Origin: an uncultured candidatus Porisulfidus sp.
GTDB taxonomy: Bacteria > Pseudomonadota > Gammaproteobacteria > Poriferisulfidales > Oxydemutatoraceae
DNA length: 64,000 bases
Assembly (NCBI GenBank): GCA_965215125.1
Contig: OZ244052.1
Coordinates: 576,001-640,000 of the forward strand
Reading direction: 5' to 3'
How positions within the stretch are numbered: position 1 is the first letter of the stretch; the number at the start of each line of letters is the position of its first letter. Under the pieces are notes generated by a model that had not been told where the DNA came from, did no database searches, and saw nothing but the letters and a program-made list of their open reading frames with translations. Below are positions 8,480 through 31,561 of this stretch, piece after piece. The translations under genes were made by a program, and so were the position numbers.

Positions 8480-9513
8480 GGGGATGTACGATGCCATGAC
8501 ATATTGGACAAATGGGGGCAAAAGGAAGCGAGCTGTTGTGCCGGTGTTTTATAGGCTAGACTTTGGTGCGGTCTCCTGAAGTTATACCGCCCGAGATATT
8601 CAAATAATACATCGTTAAATCGTCCTAAATCGGTCACTAAAATATCCTCATGATGTGCTACAAACTCCTCCTGAATGGTGCGGTTAAATCTCTCGTCTAC
8701 GGCATTCATTTTCGGGCAACGAGGATAAGTATAACAGTGTTTAATGTTGTGTTGTTGTAGATAAGCCTCGAAGTCGCCGGCAAACTCGCTGCCGTTGTCG
8801 GTCAGTACTTGAGAGAGGTTGCCGGGGAATACCGTGTCCACCAATCTTGCGAATGTCGCAGCATTTTTACTGTGGGCACGTCGGCAGGCGACGGCAACGG
8901 CGAAACGGCTGTAGTGGTCAATCGCAGTGAACAGATAATAGCGTGTCCGATCAACGAAATAATGGATGGTATCCATAGCCACGCAGTGTCCGGGAAATTG
9001 CGCTTTGGCATCTTTGCCGAGACGGTTGCGTGGTTGAGAAACCTTACGTTTGTGTGTTTTCTTAGAGGGCGAACAACGCATGTTGTCCGATGCATCGGCA
9101 ATCAACCGAGCAATGGTGCGAGGCTTCGGACACTGCAGTTCCCGTGCATCACACCACGGCTTTAAGAAGTAGTAAATCTTCGGCGCACCCATATTCGGAT
9201 AGCTGTGTCGCAGTCGCCTAATCTCATCACTGATGTGAGTAGACCAATTACGGCGACGACGCTGCCGAGGTGCTTTACTTGCGTCTCGCAAAGCGGATAC
9301 ACCGCCCTCGTCAAAGCACTTTTTCCAGCGGTATAGGGTGGAACGGCTCACCCCGACAAAGTCTTGGGTTGCGTTTAAGCCGTGTTTGTTCCAAAATTCT
9401 AGTGCATTAAGTTTTTGTTTGGCATCTGTTGCCATCATAGCCTCCGTTTTGTTGGAAAAAGAGGCTATTTTATAAAAACCTGTAATGCGGTAGCCGATGT
9501 GCTGGTTTTGCAT
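8452..9513 (-). CDS. DDE (rve/integrase-core) transposase with N-terminal HTH, IS481-like
   Basis: VSRSTLYRWKK HTH; AMDTI...LTDNGSEF...ERFNRTIQEEF...YNFRRPHQSL; reading frame runs through the IR and stops in flanking DNA. Confidence 0.9.
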   Translation of the reverse strand: MQNQHIGYRITGFYKIASFSNKTEAMMATDAKQKLNALEFWNKHGLNATQDFVGVSRSTLYRWKKCFDEGGVSALRDASKAPRQRRRRNWSTHISDEIRRLRHSYPNMGAPKIYYFLKPWCDARELQCPKPRTIARLIADASDNMRCSPSKKTHKRKVSQPRNRLGKDAKAQFPGHCVAMDTIHYFVDRTRYYLFTAIDHYSRFAVAVACRRAHSKNAATFARLVDTVFPGNLSQVLTDNGSEFAGDFEAYLQQHNIKHCYTYPRCPKMNAVDERFNRTIQEEFVAHHEDILVTDLGRFNDVLFEYLGRYNFRRPHQSLAYKTPAQQLASFCPHLSNMSWHRTSPCTFFHFLL

Positions 9514-9616
9514 GTCGGCTACTTTGATTTAAGAGGTATTTTTCCACTAGGAAAAGTACTTTTCCTAGTGGAAAGATTAGGTTCTAAAGAGTCCAATATG
9601 TATCTGGCATTGTACA
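8485..9616 (-). mobile_element. IS481-like insertion sequence
   Basis: TGT...ACA ends; imperfect IRs TGTACGATGCCATGACATATTGGAC / TGTACAATGCCAGATACATATTGGAC; flanked by the direct repeat GGGGA (8480-8484, 9617-9621). Confidence 0.85.
9541..9574. repeat. Perfect 34 bp palindrome upstream of the IS481-like transposase
   Basis: TTTCCACTAGGAAAAGT|ACTTTTCCTAGTGGAAA. Confidence 0.95.
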
Positions 9617-9654
9617 GGGGAACCTTGATTTTTTGTCAACCTCAAGCGGTAATA

Positions 9655-9705
9655 CCTCGTCCGTCCTGCAGCGTGTCTCCTCCGACTTCCTAGGCACTGC
9701 ATCTG
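9655..9705 (-). other. Remnant of the IS110 left-end (bridge RNA) region
   Basis: Reverse complement is identical over 51 bp to 27091-27141. Confidence 0.85.
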
Positions 9706-14639: not shown

Positions 14640-14733
14640 CAGTGTCATGCCGATTGACCTATCGGGCACACATGCGAGTCTGCCCCTACAAGCTCAATCG
14701 GCGGCTCTATTTTGCCCCTACAAGGAGGGGAAT
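14640..14733. repeat. Composite hairpin repeat: module A with a GTAG-REP in its loop, followed by half of module C
   Basis: GCCGATTGA (14649) ... TCAATCGGC (14694) enclosing GGGCACACATGCGAGTCTGCCCCTAC (14664-14689), then CCCCTACAAGGAGGGGAAT. Confidence 0.8.
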
Positions 14734-26371: not shown

Positions 26372-26603
26372 TGTTATTTCTCCTCTGATTTAATGGACTT
26401 GGCTAAGTAAAAACCAATTTTCAAGCTATTCTATACCATAAATAGGCACCTTAAAAATAAAACCGACGAAGCAACCAAAATTTGGGTATGAACTGCATCT
26501 GTAGAGATAGACCCCCCGCTCCACAAACTTCATAATATTAGACCTTAATATCGTTTATGCTATAGTGTAAACATTCTAAAAATATTGATGAAGGAAATAA
26601 ATT

Positions 26604-26837
26604 ATGAAAAAAGAGGAAATGACAATAGACGAAGTTTATAGAGAACTTAAAGACGACATTCAAGGTATGGCGACTAAGCATGACTTGAAGGTTGGCTTGG
26701 ACGAACTCCGTAATGAGTTTAAGGCAGATATGTCAAAGATGCGTACTTGGGTTATTAGCTTGTTTATCGGTGCGGTAGTCATCATGGGAACGCTTGTAGG
26801 AGCGTACGCCAACATGACGATCGCGCTACTCAAATAG
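26604..26837 (+). CDS. Small coiled-coil protein with C-terminal TM anchor (DUF1640/CCDC90-like)
   Basis: MATKHDL...heptads...WVISLFIGAVVIMGTLVG; RBS AAGGA; upstream TGcTATAGT extended -10-like motif. Confidence 0.6.
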   Translation: MKKEEMTIDEVYRELKDDIQGMATKHDLKVGLDELRNEFKADMSKMRTWVISLFIGAVVIMGTLVGAYANMTIALLK

Positions 26838-26894
26838 GATTGCTAAAAAATACTCCATGAAAAATACCTCATAAAATTGTAGAGCAGACATACT

Positions 26895-27033
26895 GGGCTG
26901 TTGAAAAAGTGCGGACATCGCACAACACCAACCGTCCTGCGCCAACAAATAATGGTTTCCATAAATTGGATGAATAAATGTATAAATCATGCAGATACGA
27001 AACAACCACCCCGTCAGGCTTCGCCTGCCACCC
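26895..27033 (+). mobile_element. MITE-like element left part (related to 60735-60897), ending in repeat module B
   Basis: Begins GGGCTGTTGAAAAAGT; shares GCACAA..CCAA.CG...TGCGCCA......ATGGTTTCCATA with 60735-60897; module B at 27005-27033. Confidence 0.65.
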
Positions 27034-27084
27034 TAAGGGCGGACAGATATATTAAACCCTGGCTTATTTGATATAAGATAAACG

Positions 27085-27262
27085 CTTAGGCAGATGCAGT
27101 GCCTAGGAAGTCGGAGGAGACACGCTGCAGGACGGACGAGGCATTAAAGCCTGATGGTATGAAAAGCACTCCTCCGGCGTTATGACTATAGAGCTCGAAA
27201 GGCAGCTTGGGACTTTAGATCTCGTATTCATCTGTTTGGGCGGCGTAGTCATACTTTCCTAA
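27085..27262 (+). ncRNA. Putative IS110 bridge RNA (5' hairpin, target-binding loop, donor-binding loop)
   Basis: Stems TAGGCA/TGCCTA, CGGAGGAG/CTCCTCCG and TATGACTA/TAGTCATA; internal loops carry segments matching the target and donor junctions; ends approximate. Confidence 0.75.
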
Positions 27263-27319
27263 ACTGTGTTTGATACCTAGTATTTCATTCATTAACCAAC
27301 CCTTATGGAGTAATTTATT

Positions 27320-28294
27320 ATGGAAAACAAACAACCCGTCACGATTGGCGTTGATGTCTCTAAAGACACTTTAGAGGCGGCTCTATTATTCACTGATAAT
27401 AGTTTTGCCGAGCAACAATTTAGTAGTGATGCCCAAGGCATCAAACAGTTGTTAGCTTGGACGAGCAAACACCGCGCACAGCAGTGTCGCATCTGTGTTG
27501 AGGCGACCGGCGGTCTTGAACTAGACCTGTGCATGGCCGGCTATGATGCCGGGCATCCAATCATCGTGGCAGCACCGGTGCTGATCGCTAGATTCCGCGA
27601 CTCGCTCGGCATACGCAGTAAAACCGATCGCGTGGATGCGCGTATCATCGCACGCTTCGTATTTGCTATCCCGCCTGAAAACAATTGGCAAAAGCCCTCA
27701 CCGGCTGTGCAAGCTTTGCGCGACGCACTGAAATGGCGCAGGGAATTAGTCAAGTGTTGTACGATGTTAAGCAATTGCGCTAATACCCTGCGCGATGCGA
27801 AGCAAAAAAAGGTGGCAGCCACTAGCCTGAAGAACCATGAGAAGCAGATCGATAAGATTAATGCCTCAATGGACAAAATCATCGCTCAAGACGAGCACCT
27901 CACACAGCTTCACCAGTTGCTGTGTTCCATTCCTGGAATCGGAACTCAAACTGCGGCTGCCCTGTGTGCAGTACTGGATGATAATACGTTTCGCCATCCA
28001 AAGCAACTCGCCGCCTATATCGGCATCACGCCCAAGCACAAGCAATCCGGCAACTGCGCATCGCCCACGCCCATCTCTAAACAGGGCAATGCCGACCTGC
28101 GCACCCTCCTATTTATGGCAGCACTCTCGGCACGTCGGCATAACCTAACCATCCGTGCATTTGCCGACCAATTAAGTCGGCGGCGTCCGGAGTTAACTAA
28201 AAAGCAGATTATTGTTGCTTGCGCTCATAAGCTCACGCGTATTATTTATGGGGTCACCACGCACAAGCAACCGTTTGACACGAATTATTGTTGA
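27320..28294 (+). CDS. IS110-family DEDD recombinase/transposase
   Basis: IGVDVSK (D), VEATG (E), KTDRVDA (DD), IPGIG, KQSG (catalytic Ser), ISKQGNADLR. Confidence 0.96.
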   Translation: MENKQPVTIGVDVSKDTLEAALLFTDNSFAEQQFSSDAQGIKQLLAWTSKHRAQQCRICVEATGGLELDLCMAGYDAGHPIIVAAPVLIARFRDSLGIRSKTDRVDARIIARFVFAIPPENNWQKPSPAVQALRDALKWRRELVKCCTMLSNCANTLRDAKQKKVAATSLKNHEKQIDKINASMDKIIAQDEHLTQLHQLLCSIPGIGTQTAAALCAVLDDNTFRHPKQLAAYIGITPKHKQSGNCASPTPISKQGNADLRTLLFMAALSARRHNLTIRAFADQLSRRRPELTKKQIIVACAHKLTRIIYGVTTHKQPFDTNYC

Positions 28295-28350
28295 GCATTT
28301 GCGTCCTAAATCGATACTCACAAAAGGAGATAAAAAATGAATAAAACGGC

Positions 28351-28356
28351 TTGATT
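28351..28356 (+). promoter_or_regulatory. -35 box of the IS110 circle-junction promoter (pairs with -10 TATATT at 27048-27053)
   Basis: Joining the ends at the CA core gives TTGATT-N17-TATATT. Confidence 0.75.
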
Positions 28357-28404
28357 TTTAATAAGGCATCATGCAAGTCCGCCCCTACAAGGAGGGGAAT
28401 GGGG

Positions 28405-28914
28405 TCAGAGTTCGGCCAGTAATCGCAAGATACCTTGCATGGCTTCGGCTACGGTTGCGCGCCGAATGTGGTCGCGCGTGCCGGCAAAGTTACAGAGCTG
28501 AATGTGCTGCGTATGGTTGCGCAGTTGCCAGCCGATCCATACCGTGCCGACGGGTTTATCGCGAGTGCCACCGTCGGGTCCGGCGATACCGCTCACCGCC
28601 ACTGCAACATTCGCATCGGCTACTTTCAACAGCGTTTTCTCGAGCATCTGCGATACGACTTCGCGGCTCACCGCACCGTATTCTCGGAGTAGCGATTGAT
28701 CGATGCCGAGTGTGGTTGCTTTCGCCTCAAGACTATAGGTCACTAAGGCGGCACTGAACCATGCAGAGCTTCCGGGTAGGTCGGTACAGGCTTTGGCAAT
28801 CCATCCGCCGGTGCAGGACTCTGCCGTTGCCAGCTTGATATTATGCCTACACAATACGGTTGCGAGCTTTTCGCACATTGTATAGATTGATTTATCGCTT
28901 AAAATATCGGTCAT
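28405..28914 (-). CDS. pncC: CinA C-terminal / NMN amidohydrolase
   Basis: [28 protein letters not shown]...KPVGTV; start set at MTDIL. Confidence 0.88.
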
Positions 28915-28996
28915 GGCGGTAATCGGGCTTTGGTTATATCCTTTTATAAGCAAATCTATAGACTGTCATTATGCAATAATAAAGAACGAACATTAT

Positions 28997-31561
28997 ATGT
29001 CAAAGACTAAACACACACAGAGCATGCAACAGTATCTGGATATTAAGGCTCAGTATCCTAAGCTACTGTTGCTCTATCAGATGGGCGACTTCTACGAGTT
29101 GTTTTACGACGACGCCGAAAAGGCGGCGCGCTTGCTCGACATCACCCTAACCTCGCGCAACCGTTCCGATAAAGAACCTATTCCGATGGCAGGTGTGCCG
29201 GTACATTCGGTTGAGTCGTATATTGCCAAGCTGGTGCAACGCGGCGAATCGGTAGTGCTATGCAATCAGATAGGCGACCCTAAGACGAGCAAGGGTTTGG
29301 TCGAGCGGCAGGTGGTGCGCATTATCACTCCCGGCACTTTGACCGAAGAAAGCCTGTTGCAAGAAAGAAAAGAAAACTTACTCGTCTCCATACACCGAGA
29401 CAAGGGGAACTACGGCATCGCAACCGTCGAACTCAGCACCGGGAACTTTAGGCTTTGCGAATGCGAGGATATTGCAAGTGTCAACGCCGAACTTGAGCGT
29501 ATGCAACCTTCGGAAATCTTGCTGGCGGAGCATCAAGAATTAGAACTTTCCGTGCCGGCGCAACGAACGATACGTCCGCTCTGGCATTACGCCCACGATT
29601 ATTGTCACCGCATCCTTTGCGAGCAGATGAATACTCGGGATTTAAGCGGTTTCGGCTGTGAGCAACTGCATAGTGCGGTTTGTGCATCGGGCGCATTGCT
29701 TCATTACCTAAAGGAAACCCAAAAAAGCGTACTCCCCCATTTATCCAAATTAAGCGTAGAACATCTGCAAGATTACATCGCAATAGATGCCGAAAGTCGG
29801 GCGTGCCTAGAGATAGACAGCGCACTCTCGGGTCAAGATCGGCACAGCTTGGTTGCGACCTACGATAAAACCGGCTCGGCAATGGGTAGCCGCTGTTTGC
29901 GACGATGGTTCGGGCAGCCGCTTAAGGATCACAAGCGTATCGATAACCGGCTCGATGCGGTTGAATGGCTGATGCAACACGGCGATACCGAGGCGATTGT
30001 GCGGCAATTCAAAAAAATCAGCGATTTGGAGCGTATTATTTCCAGACTCGCTTTATTGACCGCACGCCCCAGAGACTTACTGGGTATGCGCGAAACACTG
30101 GAAATGTTGCCCGACATCAAAGCACTATTGAACAACACCGATGTGCGACTGTTGCAAAGGATCGATGCGATGCTCAATGTCAAGGAAGCCATCACCGAGA
30201 CTTTAGCGAAAGCGATAAAAGATCAACCGCCGGCAACGATACGAGACGGCGGCGTTATCAAAGCCGGCTTTGATGTTAAGTTGGACGAATTACGCACCTT
30301 GAGTAGCCACGGCGACGACTATTTACTCAAGCTGGAAAAAGACGAACAACAACGCAGCGGTTTATCCAATCTACGCCTCGGCTACAACAAAATACACGGC
30401 TACTATATAGAAGTTACCAAAGCACAAAGCCAACATGTCCCTGCCGATTATCAATGTGTGCAAACCTTGAAAAATGCCTCCCGCTTTACCATCCCCGCAT
30501 TGCAGCAATTTCAAGGGCGTATTCTGGCTGCACAGGAACAGGCACTGGCTTACGAAAAAAAACTTTATTTGGAATTATTGCAGAGCTTTGTGCCGGATCT
30601 TGTTTCATTGAAAGAATGTGCGCAAGGTCTTGCAACGTTGGATGTACTCAATAGCCTCGCACGCTGCGCACAGCAGTACCGATATTGCCGACCCGAGTTC
30701 TCGCAGCAGATCGGAATCAAAATCATCGCCGGCAGACACCCCGTTGCAGAACGCACAATGGAAAACGAATTCATTCCCAACGATTTGTATATGGACGAAC
30801 AACGGCGCATATTGATTATTACCGGACCCAATATGGGCGGCAAATCAACCTATATGCGGCAGACCGCATTGATCGTATTGCTCGCTCATATCGGTGCTTA
30901 TATCCCCGCCGACAAAGCCGTCATCGGACCTATAGATCGGATTTTTACGCGCATCGGTGCTTCGGACGACATTTCATCGGGACGGTCTACTTTCATGGTA
31001 GAGATGACCGAAACCGCAAACATATTAAATAATGCAACTCCGCACAGCCTAATCTTAATGGATGAGATCGGGCGCGGTACCAGCACCTTCGACGGCATGA
31101 GTTTGGCTTGGGCATGTGTGGCGTATCTCGCCGAATATAATCGAGCACTCACCTTGTTTGCAAGCCATTATTTTGAATTGACATCGCTAGACCGACACTA
31201 CGAAACTGTGCACAATGTACATATAGATGCGATTGAACACAAGGAGAAGATAATCTTTTTATATAAAGTCAAAGCCGGCCCCGCCAACAAGAGCTACGGA
31301 CTGCAAGTGGCTCGGCTAGCCGGGGTACCCGAAGATGTCATCAAGGTTGCCAAACAAAAGTTACATGGATTGGAGGCACAACAAAAACAAAACAATAACG
31401 ATCCCCAAATCGCATTGGAATTCTCTCAACAAACAACGCAGGTGGTTGAGCCCGAGAAAAAGCTCGCAAACCTAATTTCTGCGCTAGACCTCGATGCGCT
31501 CAGCCCGCGTGAAGCACATGCCAAACTCTATGAAATCAAAAGTGAAGCCGAAAAGATCTAA
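28997..31561 (+). CDS. mutS: DNA mismatch repair protein MutS
   Basis: [46 protein letters not shown]; start set at MSKTK. Confidence 0.98.

What the first reader, a model, noticed from the sequence alone, without database searches (positions are those of the whole stretch)
27005..28400. IS110 bridge-recombinase element with a readable guide code: CA core, REP target, junction promoter
Seen: removing the element at a shared CA dinucleotide (27044-45 / 28370-71) restores the palindrome AGGGCGGA-CA-TGCAAGTCCGCCCCTAC, which resembles the empty REP at 14664-14689. Circularising at CA gives ...AAGGCAT-CA-GATAT... and the promoter TTGATT-N17-TATATT. The 275 bp left non-coding end holds two stem-closed loops. 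Loop 1 (stem 27112-19/27169-76) has AGGACGGAC (27129-37; target left AGGGCGGAC, 8/9) and GTATG (27157-61; pairs with target CATGC using one G:U). Loop 2 (stem 27181-88/27246-53) has AAGGCAGC (27199-206; donor left AAGGCATC, 7/8) and ATCTG (27230-34; exact complement of donor CAGAT). Known: IS621-type IS110 elements encode bridge RNAs, form junction promoters, target REPs and use a CT core. Inference: an intact, probably programmable bridge system with a CA core and a different REP target. The system class is known, but this ortholog may be uncharacterised.
Basis: partly seen in the sequence, partly recalled or inferred. Interest (0 to 1): 0.82.

Follow-up and report, generated by a model that had tools for sequence, protein, structure and literature searches.

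The report
Bridge-RNA insertion sequence with CA core
A 1.3-kb IS110-family mobile element sits inside a repeated palindrome and carries a two-loop guide RNA whose guide letters match its insertion site and its own ends; it is an uncharacterised relative of the known IS621 bridge-recombinase system that recombines at CA instead of the usual CT.

Summary
Window 27046-28371 is a 1326-bp IS110-group element inserted in a REP hairpin (GGGCGGAC-ATGCAA-GTCCGCCC). It is bounded by one shared CA. It has a 274-nt non-coding left end, a 324-aa DEDD/Tnp recombinase with all five IS621 catalytic residues, and a 75-nt right end.

The main new evidence comes from 26 copies in four genomes of the genus:
- The right target guide is 7 nt and changes with the REP loop it is inserted in. 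In 18 of 26 copies all 7 positions pair, 5 have one wobble, 2 have one mismatch, and 1 has a wobble plus a mismatch.
- The right donor guide changes with the first bases of the element; 26 of 26 agree at the variable base.
- Substitutions are concentrated in the guide loops, while the RNA scaffold is more conserved than the recombinase gene.

The left guides do not pair with the second core base. A CT-core relative from the same class pairs fully there.

No RNA or circle-junction data could be obtained. Verdict: a real, probably active, new member of the bridge-RNA IS110 kind, with an unusual CA core. Interest is moderate.

The parts
27037..27045 (+). Left half of the REP target: arm GGGCGGAC plus A. 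This is the left target, ending in the left copy of the CA core (27044-45).
   Evidence: The same left flank, GGGCRGA-CA, occurs in all G000 copies.
27046..27319 (+). Left end, 274 nt non-coding. It encodes the bridge RNA.
   Evidence: Between subfamilies the RNA part is 85-96% identical while the ORFs are 66-77% identical at the nucleotide level.
27048..27053 (+). -10 box TATATT. It is shared by the integrated promoter-like site and the junction promoter.
27061..27086 (+). 5' stem-loop of the RNA.
   Evidence: Consensus fold, helix 1.
27104..27109 (+). 5' strand of a closing helix. It pairs with 27256-27261 and brackets both loops.
   Evidence: It contains the only two compensatory pairs in the data set, both in a single sequence (G035 L036).
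27110..27178 (+). Target-binding arm: basal stem 27110-19/27169-78, small stem 27124-26/27165-67, distal hairpin 27139-42/27149-52.
27129..27138 (+). Left target guide AGGACGGACG, same sense as the top strand AGGGCGGACA.
   Evidence: Over the last 9 nt it gives 7 Watson-Crick pairs, 1 wobble and 1 mismatch.
27155..27161 (+). Right target guide UGGUAUG, complementary to CAT(A/G)(C/T)CA.
   Evidence: It co-varies with the REP loop across four guide classes.
27162..27163 (+). Putative handshake dinucleotide AA of the target loop. The first A can pair with donor T7 but not with target A7.
   Evidence: Read using the rule given in PMC11208158. Inference.
27181..27253 (+). Donor-binding arm: basal stem 27181-89/27245-53, second stem 27193-97/27237-41, distal hairpin 27208-12/27220-24.
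27199..27207 (+). Left donor guide AAGGCAGCU against the donor AAGGCATCA. It mismatches at position 7 and at the second core base.
   Evidence: The sister subfamily has AAGGCAUCU.
27229..27234 (+). Right donor guide CAUCUG, complementary to CAGAT of the left-end start.
   Evidence: It co-varies with G/A at the second base of the element (AUCUG with GATAT, ACCUG with GGTAT).
27235..27236 (+). Putative handshake dinucleotide UU of the donor loop. It can pair with target A7 and G6 but not with donor T7.
   Evidence: Read using the rule in PMC11208158. Inference.
27320..28294 (+). Recombinase gene, 324 aa. An RBS (GGAG) lies at 27307-10.
   Evidence: PF01548 and PF02371. NF033542 at 216 bits, above the cut-off of 140. 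IS621 and ISCro4 structures at E 2e-43 and 1e-44.
28295..28369 (+). Right end, 75 nt, with the -35 box TTGATT at 28351-56 and the left donor AAGGCAT at 28363-69.
28370..28388 (+). Right copy of the CA core, then the right half of the REP (TGCAA loop, GTCCGCCC arm, CTAC).
14664..14685 (+). Empty REP site of the same family within the window.

Best explanation
This is an autonomous IS110-group insertion sequence that moves by bridge-RNA-guided recombination.

Proposed cycle (inferred by analogy with IS621):
1. The element excises as a circle. Its right end and left end abut at a single CA, which places TTGATT 17 nt upstream of TATATT.
2. Transcription from this junction yields an RNA of roughly 200 nt from the left end (27060-27260).
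3. The RNA folds into a 5' hairpin and two stem-closed internal loops.
4. [quoted passage not shown]
5. [quoted passage not shown]
6. A tetramer of the 324-aa DEDD/Ser recombinase then exchanges strands at the CA core.

Shown here: the anatomy, the junctions, the complementarity, and co-variation of the guides with the DNA. Inferred by analogy: transcription, RNA binding, circle formation and the chemistry.
For: Protein:
- Pfam PF01548 and PF02371.
- NCBIfam 'IS110 family RNA-guided transposase', 216 bits, above the cut-off of 140.
- End-to-end alignment to IS621 and ISCro4 chains. D12, E61, D103, D106 and S243-G244 stand opposite the IS621 residues D11, E60, D102, D105 and S241-G242, which PMC11208158 names as catalytic.

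Junctions:
- 26 copies in four genomes are all flanked by one CA on each side.
- 24 of the 26 lie in a REP hairpin.

Right target guide (7 nt):
- Four guide classes (UGGUAUG, UUGCAUG, UAGCAUG, UAACAUG) sit in CATRYCA, CATGCAA, CATGCTA and CATGTTA respectively.
- 18 of 26 copies pair at all 7 positions, 5 have one wobble, 2 have one mismatch, and 1 has a wobble plus a mismatch.
- A copy's own guide class scores best for its own site in 22 of 26 copies.
- In G000, two guide classes share one REP pool. Only 146 of 100,000 random draws of CAT-type sites reach the observed score, and 0 of 100,000 do when drawing from all oriented sites.
- Occupancy by REP loop type: CATGCCA 4 of 6, CATATCA 1 of 4, CATGCAA 3 of 12, all other loops 0 of 30.

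Right donor guide:
- AUCUG occurs with elements starting GATAT and ACCUG with elements starting GGTAT, in 26 of 26 copies.
- 19 of 26 pair perfectly over 6 nt.

Conservation pattern:
- 20 of 42 guide-loop columns vary, against 8 of 103 scaffold columns (Fisher p = 2e-7).
- The RNA part is 85-96% identical between subfamilies whose ORFs are 66-77% identical.

Positive control:
- An unrelated class-mate element (G107, 35% aa identity, 5 copies, CT core) has the same layout at nearly the same distances. Its left guides equal its flanks (CCCAACCU and CGGUAUCU) and its right guides end in AG.

Recent activity:
- Copies A and B are identical over the whole element.
- A derivative carrying a nested IS481-like element at the same site, with the same 6-bp duplication, occupies two different REP loci. 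This fits mobilisation in trans.
Against: - No RNA evidence was obtained: no RNA run was listed as a holder, and Rfam gave no hit at E <= 1.
- No circle junction was seen in assembled contigs.
- Folding energy is only weakly better than shuffles (z -1.41 and -1.95; 18 and 8 of 200 shuffles fold as well).
- The helices never vary in the clade, so structure covariation is untested. The only 2 compensatory pairs are in a single sequence.
- Left-target-guide support is weaker. The third subfamily pairs at only 5 Watson-Crick pairs and 1 wobble of 9 with its own site, no better than with the other REP type. One nested copy (L051) has a left flank that pairs at 1 of 9.
- Left guides do not match the second core base: LDG ends CU in all copies, and LTG ends CG, CA, CU or UU.
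- The window copy is the worst-matched of the 26 at the right target guide.
- The copies are related, and some (C and D) are not independent events, so the statistics overstate.
- I chose the guide columns for the Fisher test after seeing the alignment.
Confidence: 0.88

Rival explanations
1. The recombinase recognises the REP hairpin itself, by protein contacts or DNA structure. On this view the left end is only a 5' untranslated or regulatory region, and its resemblance to the flanks is incidental.
For: - REP arms are palindromic and highly repeated, so some complementarity to G-rich loop sequence could arise easily.
- The third subfamily's left guide fits its site poorly (5 Watson-Crick pairs and 1 wobble of 9).
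- A preprint on ISPpu10 reports that a target stem-loop adds specificity beyond base pairing (abstract and passages).
Against: - The 7-nt right guide changes in step with the unpaired REP loop bases in four classes, including two classes that share one genome's REP pool.
- The donor guide tracks a single-base change at the element's own start in 26 of 26 copies.
- Substitutions cluster in the loops.

A structural contribution by the hairpin remains possible as an addition, not as a replacement.
Confidence: 0.04
2. The window subfamily is a decaying lineage. Its RNA has accumulated mismatches and no longer guides efficiently, and its copies are moved or maintained by the better-matched co-resident subfamily, or are no longer mobile.
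For: - Compared with the sister subfamily in the same genome, it has extra non-pairs at all four guides: LTG position 9 G, RTG one wobble, LDG position 7 G, RDG position 6 C.
- 2 of its 4 copies carry a nested IS in the recombinase gene.
- The genome holds several truncated left-end remnants.
Against: - Copies A and B are intact and identical over the element.
- 4 of the 5 copies with this left end sit in the minor REP variants that its own guide, and not the sister guide, fits best.
- With the guides swapped between classes, the mean score falls from 6.44 to 5.88.
- Natural IS621 guides also carry zero to two mismatches (PMC11208160 passage).
Confidence: 0.07
3. The high conservation of the left end reflects gene conversion between co-resident elements rather than selection on an RNA.
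For: Chimeras exist:
- G000 copy E has the window-type left end (273 of 274 nt) with a recombinase of the other subfamily (71% aa).
- G036 L045 shows the reverse combination.
Against: Conversion would homogenise the guide loops too, yet these are the variable part and they track the DNA partners. This explanation is compatible with the main one and does not replace it.
Confidence: 0.01

Closest known systems
IS621 of Escherichia coli (bridge recombinase and bridge RNA; PDB 8WT6)
   Same: - Two-domain DEDD/Tnp recombinase with the same five catalytic residues.
- Long left end encoding an RNA with a 5' hairpin, a target loop and a donor loop.
- Left guides same-sense and right guides antisense.
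- The 2-bp core is included in the pairing.
- The -35 box lies in the right end and the -10 box in the left end.
- REP sequences are the natural target.

Sources; PMC11208160 and PMC11208158 passages.
   Different: - About one third of aligned residues are identical (my count on the alignment printed).
- The core is CA, not CT. In IS621 relatives the T is described as almost invariant and read by the G63 main chain. The corresponding E-A-T-G motif is kept here.
- Left guides do not pair with the second core base.
- The REP family is different.
ISCro4 / IS622 of Citrobacter rodentium (PDB 9T56)
   Same: It is the best-scoring solved relative (E 1.2e-44). It recognises 14 nt, with right guides covering positions 10-14 (passages). 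This matches the 7-nt right target guide found here.
   Different: It has a CT core and is distant in sequence. It has been characterised experimentally, which this element has not.
ISPpu10 of Pseudomonas putida (preprint 10.64898/2026.03.19.712850)
   Same: It is an IS110 element whose insertions all fall in one REP family that forms a stem-loop, and it has a junction promoter (abstract and passages).
   Different: It has a CT core. Here the insertion point lies at the arm/loop boundary of the hairpin, and the guide reads the loop bases.
Unnamed IS110-group element of genome G107 (same class, 5 copies)
   Same: It has the same left-end layout, with the four guides at nearly the same distances from the element start, and it also inserts in a palindromic repeat.
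   Different: It is 35% identical in protein. Its core is CT, its left guides end CU and pair fully, and its right guides end AG.

Membership tests
IS110 family, IS110 group (bridge recombinase systems) | Recombinase with an N-terminal DEDD RuvC-like domain and a C-terminal Tnp domain | tested here: met
   PF01548 E 1.4e-20 and PF02371 E 1.3e-24. NF033542 at 216 bits, above the cut-off of 140.
IS110 family, IS110 group (bridge recombinase systems) | Catalytic residues D11, E60, D102, D105 and S241 (IS621 numbering) | tested here: met
   D12, E61, D103, D106 and S243 align to them. The residue list comes from PMC11208158 passages.
IS110 family, IS110 group (bridge recombinase systems) | Left non-coding end much longer than the right end, lying upstream of the gene | tested here: met
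   274 nt against 75 nt. The rule comes from PMC11208160 passages.
IS110 family, IS110 group (bridge recombinase systems) | Precise insertion with no duplication beyond a shared 2-bp core | tested here: met
   The same junctions occur in 26 copies. Empty sites have a single CA.
IS110 family, IS110 group (bridge recombinase systems) | [quoted passage not shown] | tested here: met
   TTGATT-17-TATATT by reading. All subfamilies keep it as TTGAYT. Function was not tested, and the circle was not observed.
IS110 family, IS110 group (bridge recombinase systems) | RNA with two internal loops, each carrying a same-sense left guide and an antisense right guide for target and donor | tested here: met
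   The same layout is found in a CT-core control element.
IS110 family, IS110 group (bridge recombinase systems) | Guides co-vary with target and donor DNA across relatives | tested here: met
   - Right target guide: four classes, with a copy's own class scoring best in 22 of 26 copies.
- Right donor guide: 26 of 26 agree.
- Left target guide: only partial.
- Left donor guide: no informative variation.

Source.
IS110 family, IS110 group (bridge recombinase systems) | Short (2-3 bp) sub-terminal inverted repeat flanking the donor | tested here: met
   AAT (28360-62) and ATT (27051-53) flank the 14-bp donor AAGGCAT-CA-GATAT, read. The feature is described in PMC11208160 passages.
IS110 family, IS110 group (bridge recombinase systems) | The RNA is transcribed and bound by the recombinase | not testable with these tools
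   No RNA holder was listed.
IS621-like subgroup (CT-core bridge systems) | CT core, with T at position 9 almost invariant | tested here: not met
   The core is CA in all 26 copies. The statement about T9 comes from PMC11208158.
IS621-like subgroup (CT-core bridge systems) | Left guides pair with both core bases | tested here: not met
   LDG ends CU against CA in all 26 copies. LTG ends CG, CA, CU or UU. The control element G107 pairs fully.
Rfam RNA family | Match to a curated covariance model | tested here: inconclusive
   No match at E <= 1 in 26500-29000. I do not know whether Rfam 15 holds a bridge RNA model.

The most novel reading that the evidence does not exclude
This genus-restricted clade may be a natural bridge-recombinase lineage whose crossover dinucleotide has moved from C-T to C-A.

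- The right guides have been re-tuned (UG instead of AG).
- The donor left guide still ends in the ancestral-looking CU.
- If so, pairing of the left guides with the second core base is dispensable here, and the recombinase tolerates or prefers A where IS621 reads T.

Such an ortholog would widen the core space open to bridge editing.

The co-resident subfamilies would also be a natural case of guide reprogramming that divides one REP family among competing elements. The RNA module appears exchangeable between recombinases that are only 60-70% identical.
Probability: 0.35. Interest if true: 0.62.

Novelty: new member of a known kind. Interest (0 to 1): 0.45.

Why it matters
Bridge recombinases are under development as programmable genome editors. 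Their use is limited by the core dinucleotide; published site selection in human cells was restricted to CT or GT cores (passage). A natural ortholog that recombines at CA is a candidate for a different core preference, and it allows a test of how the T9 contact described for IS621 is replaced.

The four guide classes found in one genus give a small natural data set on how guides are re-tuned to REP variants. It includes two classes that share one genome. The two chimeras suggest that the RNA module and the recombinase can be exchanged between lineages.

For the organism itself this is an ordinary intergenic insertion sequence.

Tried and rejected
- **Rfam scan** of 26500-29000 at E <= 1: nothing.
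- **The search for related loci** on genome contigs: only three near-identical copies in one related MAG.
- **Order-level genome search:** the clade was found only in the window's genus, in 4 of 4 other genomes of that genus. One distant hit came from elsewhere, among 53 genomes searched.
- **Class-level sample of 400 genomes:** every other match was at most 36% identical.
- **Plasmid collection, protein mode:** best hit about 35% identical.
- **Metagenome scan with a 16-nt invariant scaffold word:** 120 stretches were found and 80 loci returned. None of the 80 has the expected downstream stem, so all are chance matches. 
- **Sequencing runs:** no RNA holder listed.
- **Contigs of four DNA runs laid on 26600-28800:** joints skip exactly 1326 bases with 2 ambiguous letters, but the sides are only 19-22 letters. 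These are probably empty REP copies elsewhere, not this locus. No right-end-to-left-end joint was listed.
- **Structure covariation:** the helices are invariant in the 12 distinct left ends, so the test is uninformative.
- **Ends of two other multi-copy relatives** (G260, G411), examined to sample more cores: the boundaries could not be read cleanly, so they were dropped.
- **Locus L047 (G034):** dropped from the guide table because the left-end anchor was not found in the fetched stretch.
- **Eight further third-subfamily matches in G035** listed were not fetched.
They may list orthologs with non-CT cores, so the rarity of CA rests on passages of PMC11208158 and on one literature search that returned nothing.
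Full report
**What is there**

The window is G000:C1:576001-640000 of a 2.22-Mb, single-contig, 46% G+C genome. Its closest titled relative is a 'Candidatus Oxydemutatoraceae' MAG, a gammaproteobacterium.

Between 27046 and 28371 lies a 1326-bp element with these parts:
- a 274-nt non-coding left end;
- one ORF of 324 aa (27320-28294) preceded by GGAG;
- a 75-nt right end.

The element is bounded by CA at 27044-45 and 28370-71. The bases on either side of the two CAs differ, so exactly two bases are shared. Removing the element and one CA restores an 8-bp-arm hairpin, GGGCGGAC-ATGCAA-GTCCGCCC.

The genome holds 52 empty sites of this kind at up to one mismatch per arm. One is in the window at 14664-14685.

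**The protein**

The ORF carries PF01548 and PF02371. It passes the NCBIfam equivalog 'IS110 family RNA-guided transposase' at 216 bits against a cut-off of 140.

It aligns over residues 8-321 with the solved IS621 and ISCro4 recombinases (E 2e-43 and 1e-44). In that alignment D12, E61, D103, D106 and S243-G244 stand opposite IS621 D11, E60, D102, D105 and S241-G242. PMC11208158 reports those residues as the composite active site (passages). By my count on the printed alignment, identity to IS621 is about one third.

The nearest proteins in the large collection form a small clade: 90%, then 64-70%, 54-61% and 46-49% identical. Beyond that nothing exceeds 40%.
- In the order-level search, 4 of 4 other genomes of the window's genus carry the clade and no other genus does.
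- In a 400-genome sample of the class, every other match was at most 36% identical.

**Copies**

G000 holds these copies:
- two intact identical copies: A in the window, and B;
- two copies (C, D) interrupted at the same position by the same 1141-bp IS481-like element;
- a second subfamily, about 70% identical in protein: F and H intact, G frameshifted;
- a chimera, E;
- a degenerate copy, I.

The related genomes G034, G035 and G036 add further copies and a third subfamily about 60% identical in protein.

In all, I tabulated 26 copies with both junctions (with two right flanks taken). L047 was dropped because the left-end anchor was not in the fetched stretch. Eight more G035 matches were not fetched.

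All 26 copies are flanked by CA on both sides. Of these, 24 lie in a REP hairpin. The other two (L042, L051) have a REP half on the right but part of another copy's left end on the left.

**The RNA**

Twelve distinct left ends align without difficulty, with a mean column identity of 93%. The single-sequence and consensus folds agree on this layout:
- a 5' hairpin;
- a target arm (27110-27178);
- a donor arm (27181-27253);
- each arm is a basal stem, an internal loop and a distal hairpin.

Folding energy alone is unremarkable (z -1.41 and -1.95). The helices never vary in this clade, so they cannot be tested by covariation. The only two compensatory pairs are in a closing helix of one sequence.

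The informative signal is where the variation lies:
- 20 of 42 internal-loop columns vary, against 8 of 103 scaffold columns (Fisher p = 2e-7). I chose the columns after seeing the alignment.
- The RNA part is 85-96% identical between subfamilies whose ORFs are only 66-77% identical in nucleotides.

**Guides and DNA change together**

*Right target guide.* This is the 7 nt that follow the distal hairpin. It comes in four versions, and each sits in the REP loop variant it complements:
- UGGUAUG in CATGCCA or CATATCA;
- UUGCAUG in CATGCAA;
- UAGCAUG in CATGCTA;
- UAACAUG in CATGTTA.

Of the 26 copies, 18 pair at all seven positions, 5 have one wobble, 2 have one mismatch, and 1 (the window copy) has a wobble and a mismatch. 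A copy's own guide class is the best-scoring class for its site in 22 of 26 copies.

In G000, two classes share one REP pool. Random draws of eight CAT-type sites reach the observed score in 146 of 100,000 trials. Occupancy is 4 of 6 for CATGCCA, 1 of 4 for CATATCA, 3 of 12 for CATGCAA and 0 of 30 for all other loops.

*Right donor guide.* AUCUG occurs where the element starts GATAT, and ACCUG where it starts GGTAT, in 26 of 26 copies.

*Left target guide.* Support is weaker. GGACGGAC(R) fits GGGCGGACA (7-8 of 9). The guide of L036, GAGGGCU, fits GAGGGCA (6 of 9). The third subfamily's GAGAGGAUU fits GGGAGGGCA at only 5 Watson-Crick pairs plus one wobble of 9, no better than it fits the other REP type.

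*Left donor guide.* It is constant except at position 7, a position reported as mismatch-tolerant in IS621 (passage).

In G034 the listed REP sites are mostly of the GGGAGGGC-ATGTTA type. By my count this is 77 of the 100 rows shown. The third subfamily is therefore tuned to its hosts' commonest REP.

**The core**

The right guides end in UG and pair with CA. The left guides do not pair with the second core base:
- the left donor guide ends CU in all 26 copies;
- the left target guide ends CG, CA, CU or UU.

As a control, I read an unrelated element of the same class (G107: 35% protein identity, five copies, CT core). It has the same layout at nearly the same distances. Its left guides, CCCAACCU and CGGUAUCU, equal its flanks including both core bases. 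Its right guides end in AG.

PMC11208158 states that in IS621 and related orthologues the T of the CT core is almost invariant and is read by the main chain of G63. The E-A-T-G motif is retained here (E61-G64).

The CA core is therefore a real departure from the characterised subgroup. The CU ending of the donor guide looks like a remnant of a CT-core ancestor, which is an inference.

No held paper contains both 'bridge RNA' and 'CA core'. Supplementary ortholog tables could not be seen.

**Promoter and handshake**

Joining the ends at CA gives TTGATT-17-TATATT. The other subfamilies have TTGATT or TTGACT at the same place.

In this locus the flank already offers CTGCCA-17-TATATT (9 of 12). 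The integrated copy may therefore also be transcribed, as reported at a low level for IS621 (abstract of PMC13626964).

The two bases after each right guide fit the published handshake rule at position 7:
- A in the target loop can pair with donor T7 but not with target A7;
- U in the donor loop can pair with target A7 but not with donor T7.

This comes from reading against the rule in the passages, and is an inference.

AAT and ATT flank the 14-bp donor as a 3-bp inverted repeat, as described for the IS110 group.

**Mechanism and standing**

The best explanation is an active, autonomous bridge-RNA-guided insertion sequence (confidence 0.88).

Shown here: anatomy, junctions, complementarity, guide and DNA co-variation, and signs of recent movement. 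Copies A and B are identical, and the recombinase-disrupted composite occupies two different REP loci.

Inferred: transcription, RNA-protein binding, the circle and the chemistry.

Rivals are unlikely:
- Protein-only or structure-only REP recognition does not explain the loop-base co-variation.
- A decaying lineage is argued against by the intact identical copies and by the preference of this left end for its own minor REP variants.
- Gene conversion explains the chimeras but not the pattern of variation.

**Novelty**

The kind is known, and I could not find this ortholog or its clade described. It fails two features of the IS621-like subgroup: the CT core, and full core pairing by the left guides. 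It meets every feature of the wider IS110 bridge group that could be tested.

I file it as a new member of a known kind. The bolder reading is a lineage with a changed core preference, with probability about 0.35.

Noticed in passing
G000:764794-765934 and 298355-299495 (copies C and D). A 96% copy lies in the window at 8485-9616.: A 1141-bp IS481-like element with a 351-aa integrase-type ORF is present as 7 identical copies and 2 copies at 96%. It sits in the recombinase gene of two IS110 copies at the same position with the same 6-bp duplication, although those two copies lie in different REP loci. The composite was therefore probably moved in trans as cargo.
   Followed up: partly
G000:1998228-1999588 (copy E); L045 in G036: Two chimeras were found. 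One combines the window-type left end (273 of 274 nt) with the other subfamily's recombinase (71% aa). The other is the reverse, with its break near the 3' end of the RNA. The RNA module seems exchangeable between recombinase lineages.
   Followed up: partly
Window 9642-9705 (- strand); G000:521875-521933, 2109565-2109617, 1402490-1402598, 1981279-1981359, 1633278-1633322: These are solo fragments of the left end. Two of them (521875 and 2109565) lie between the two halves of a REP. The one at 2109565 ends at an internal ...GATG-CA of the left end, as if left by a partial excision at a pseudo-site.
   Followed up: partly
L042 (G034) and L051 (G035): In these copies the first 77 or 52 nt of the left end are duplicated in tandem, joined at an internal CA. 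They look like insertions into another copy's left end followed by loss of one copy. Preprints describe partial circles and half-match recombination for IS110 elements.
   Followed up: partly
G000:1334511-1334592 and 670310-670417: Divergent target-loop-like modules (77% identical) with different guide letters. The protein search found no recombinase match at these places. They may be orphan guide RNAs or old remnants.
   Followed up: no
Window 27005-27033 and 28385-28404: The REP is embedded between two other repeated palindromes. One is a 29-nt unit (ACCACCCCGTCAGGC...) with about 40 copies in the genome. The other is a short CCCCT...AGGGG unit. Together they form a composite repeat cluster.
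   Followed up: no
G035:C2:365666-380423: A long tandem array of at least 35 identical REP hairpins (loop ATATGA), spaced about 134 or 214 bp apart.
   Followed up: no
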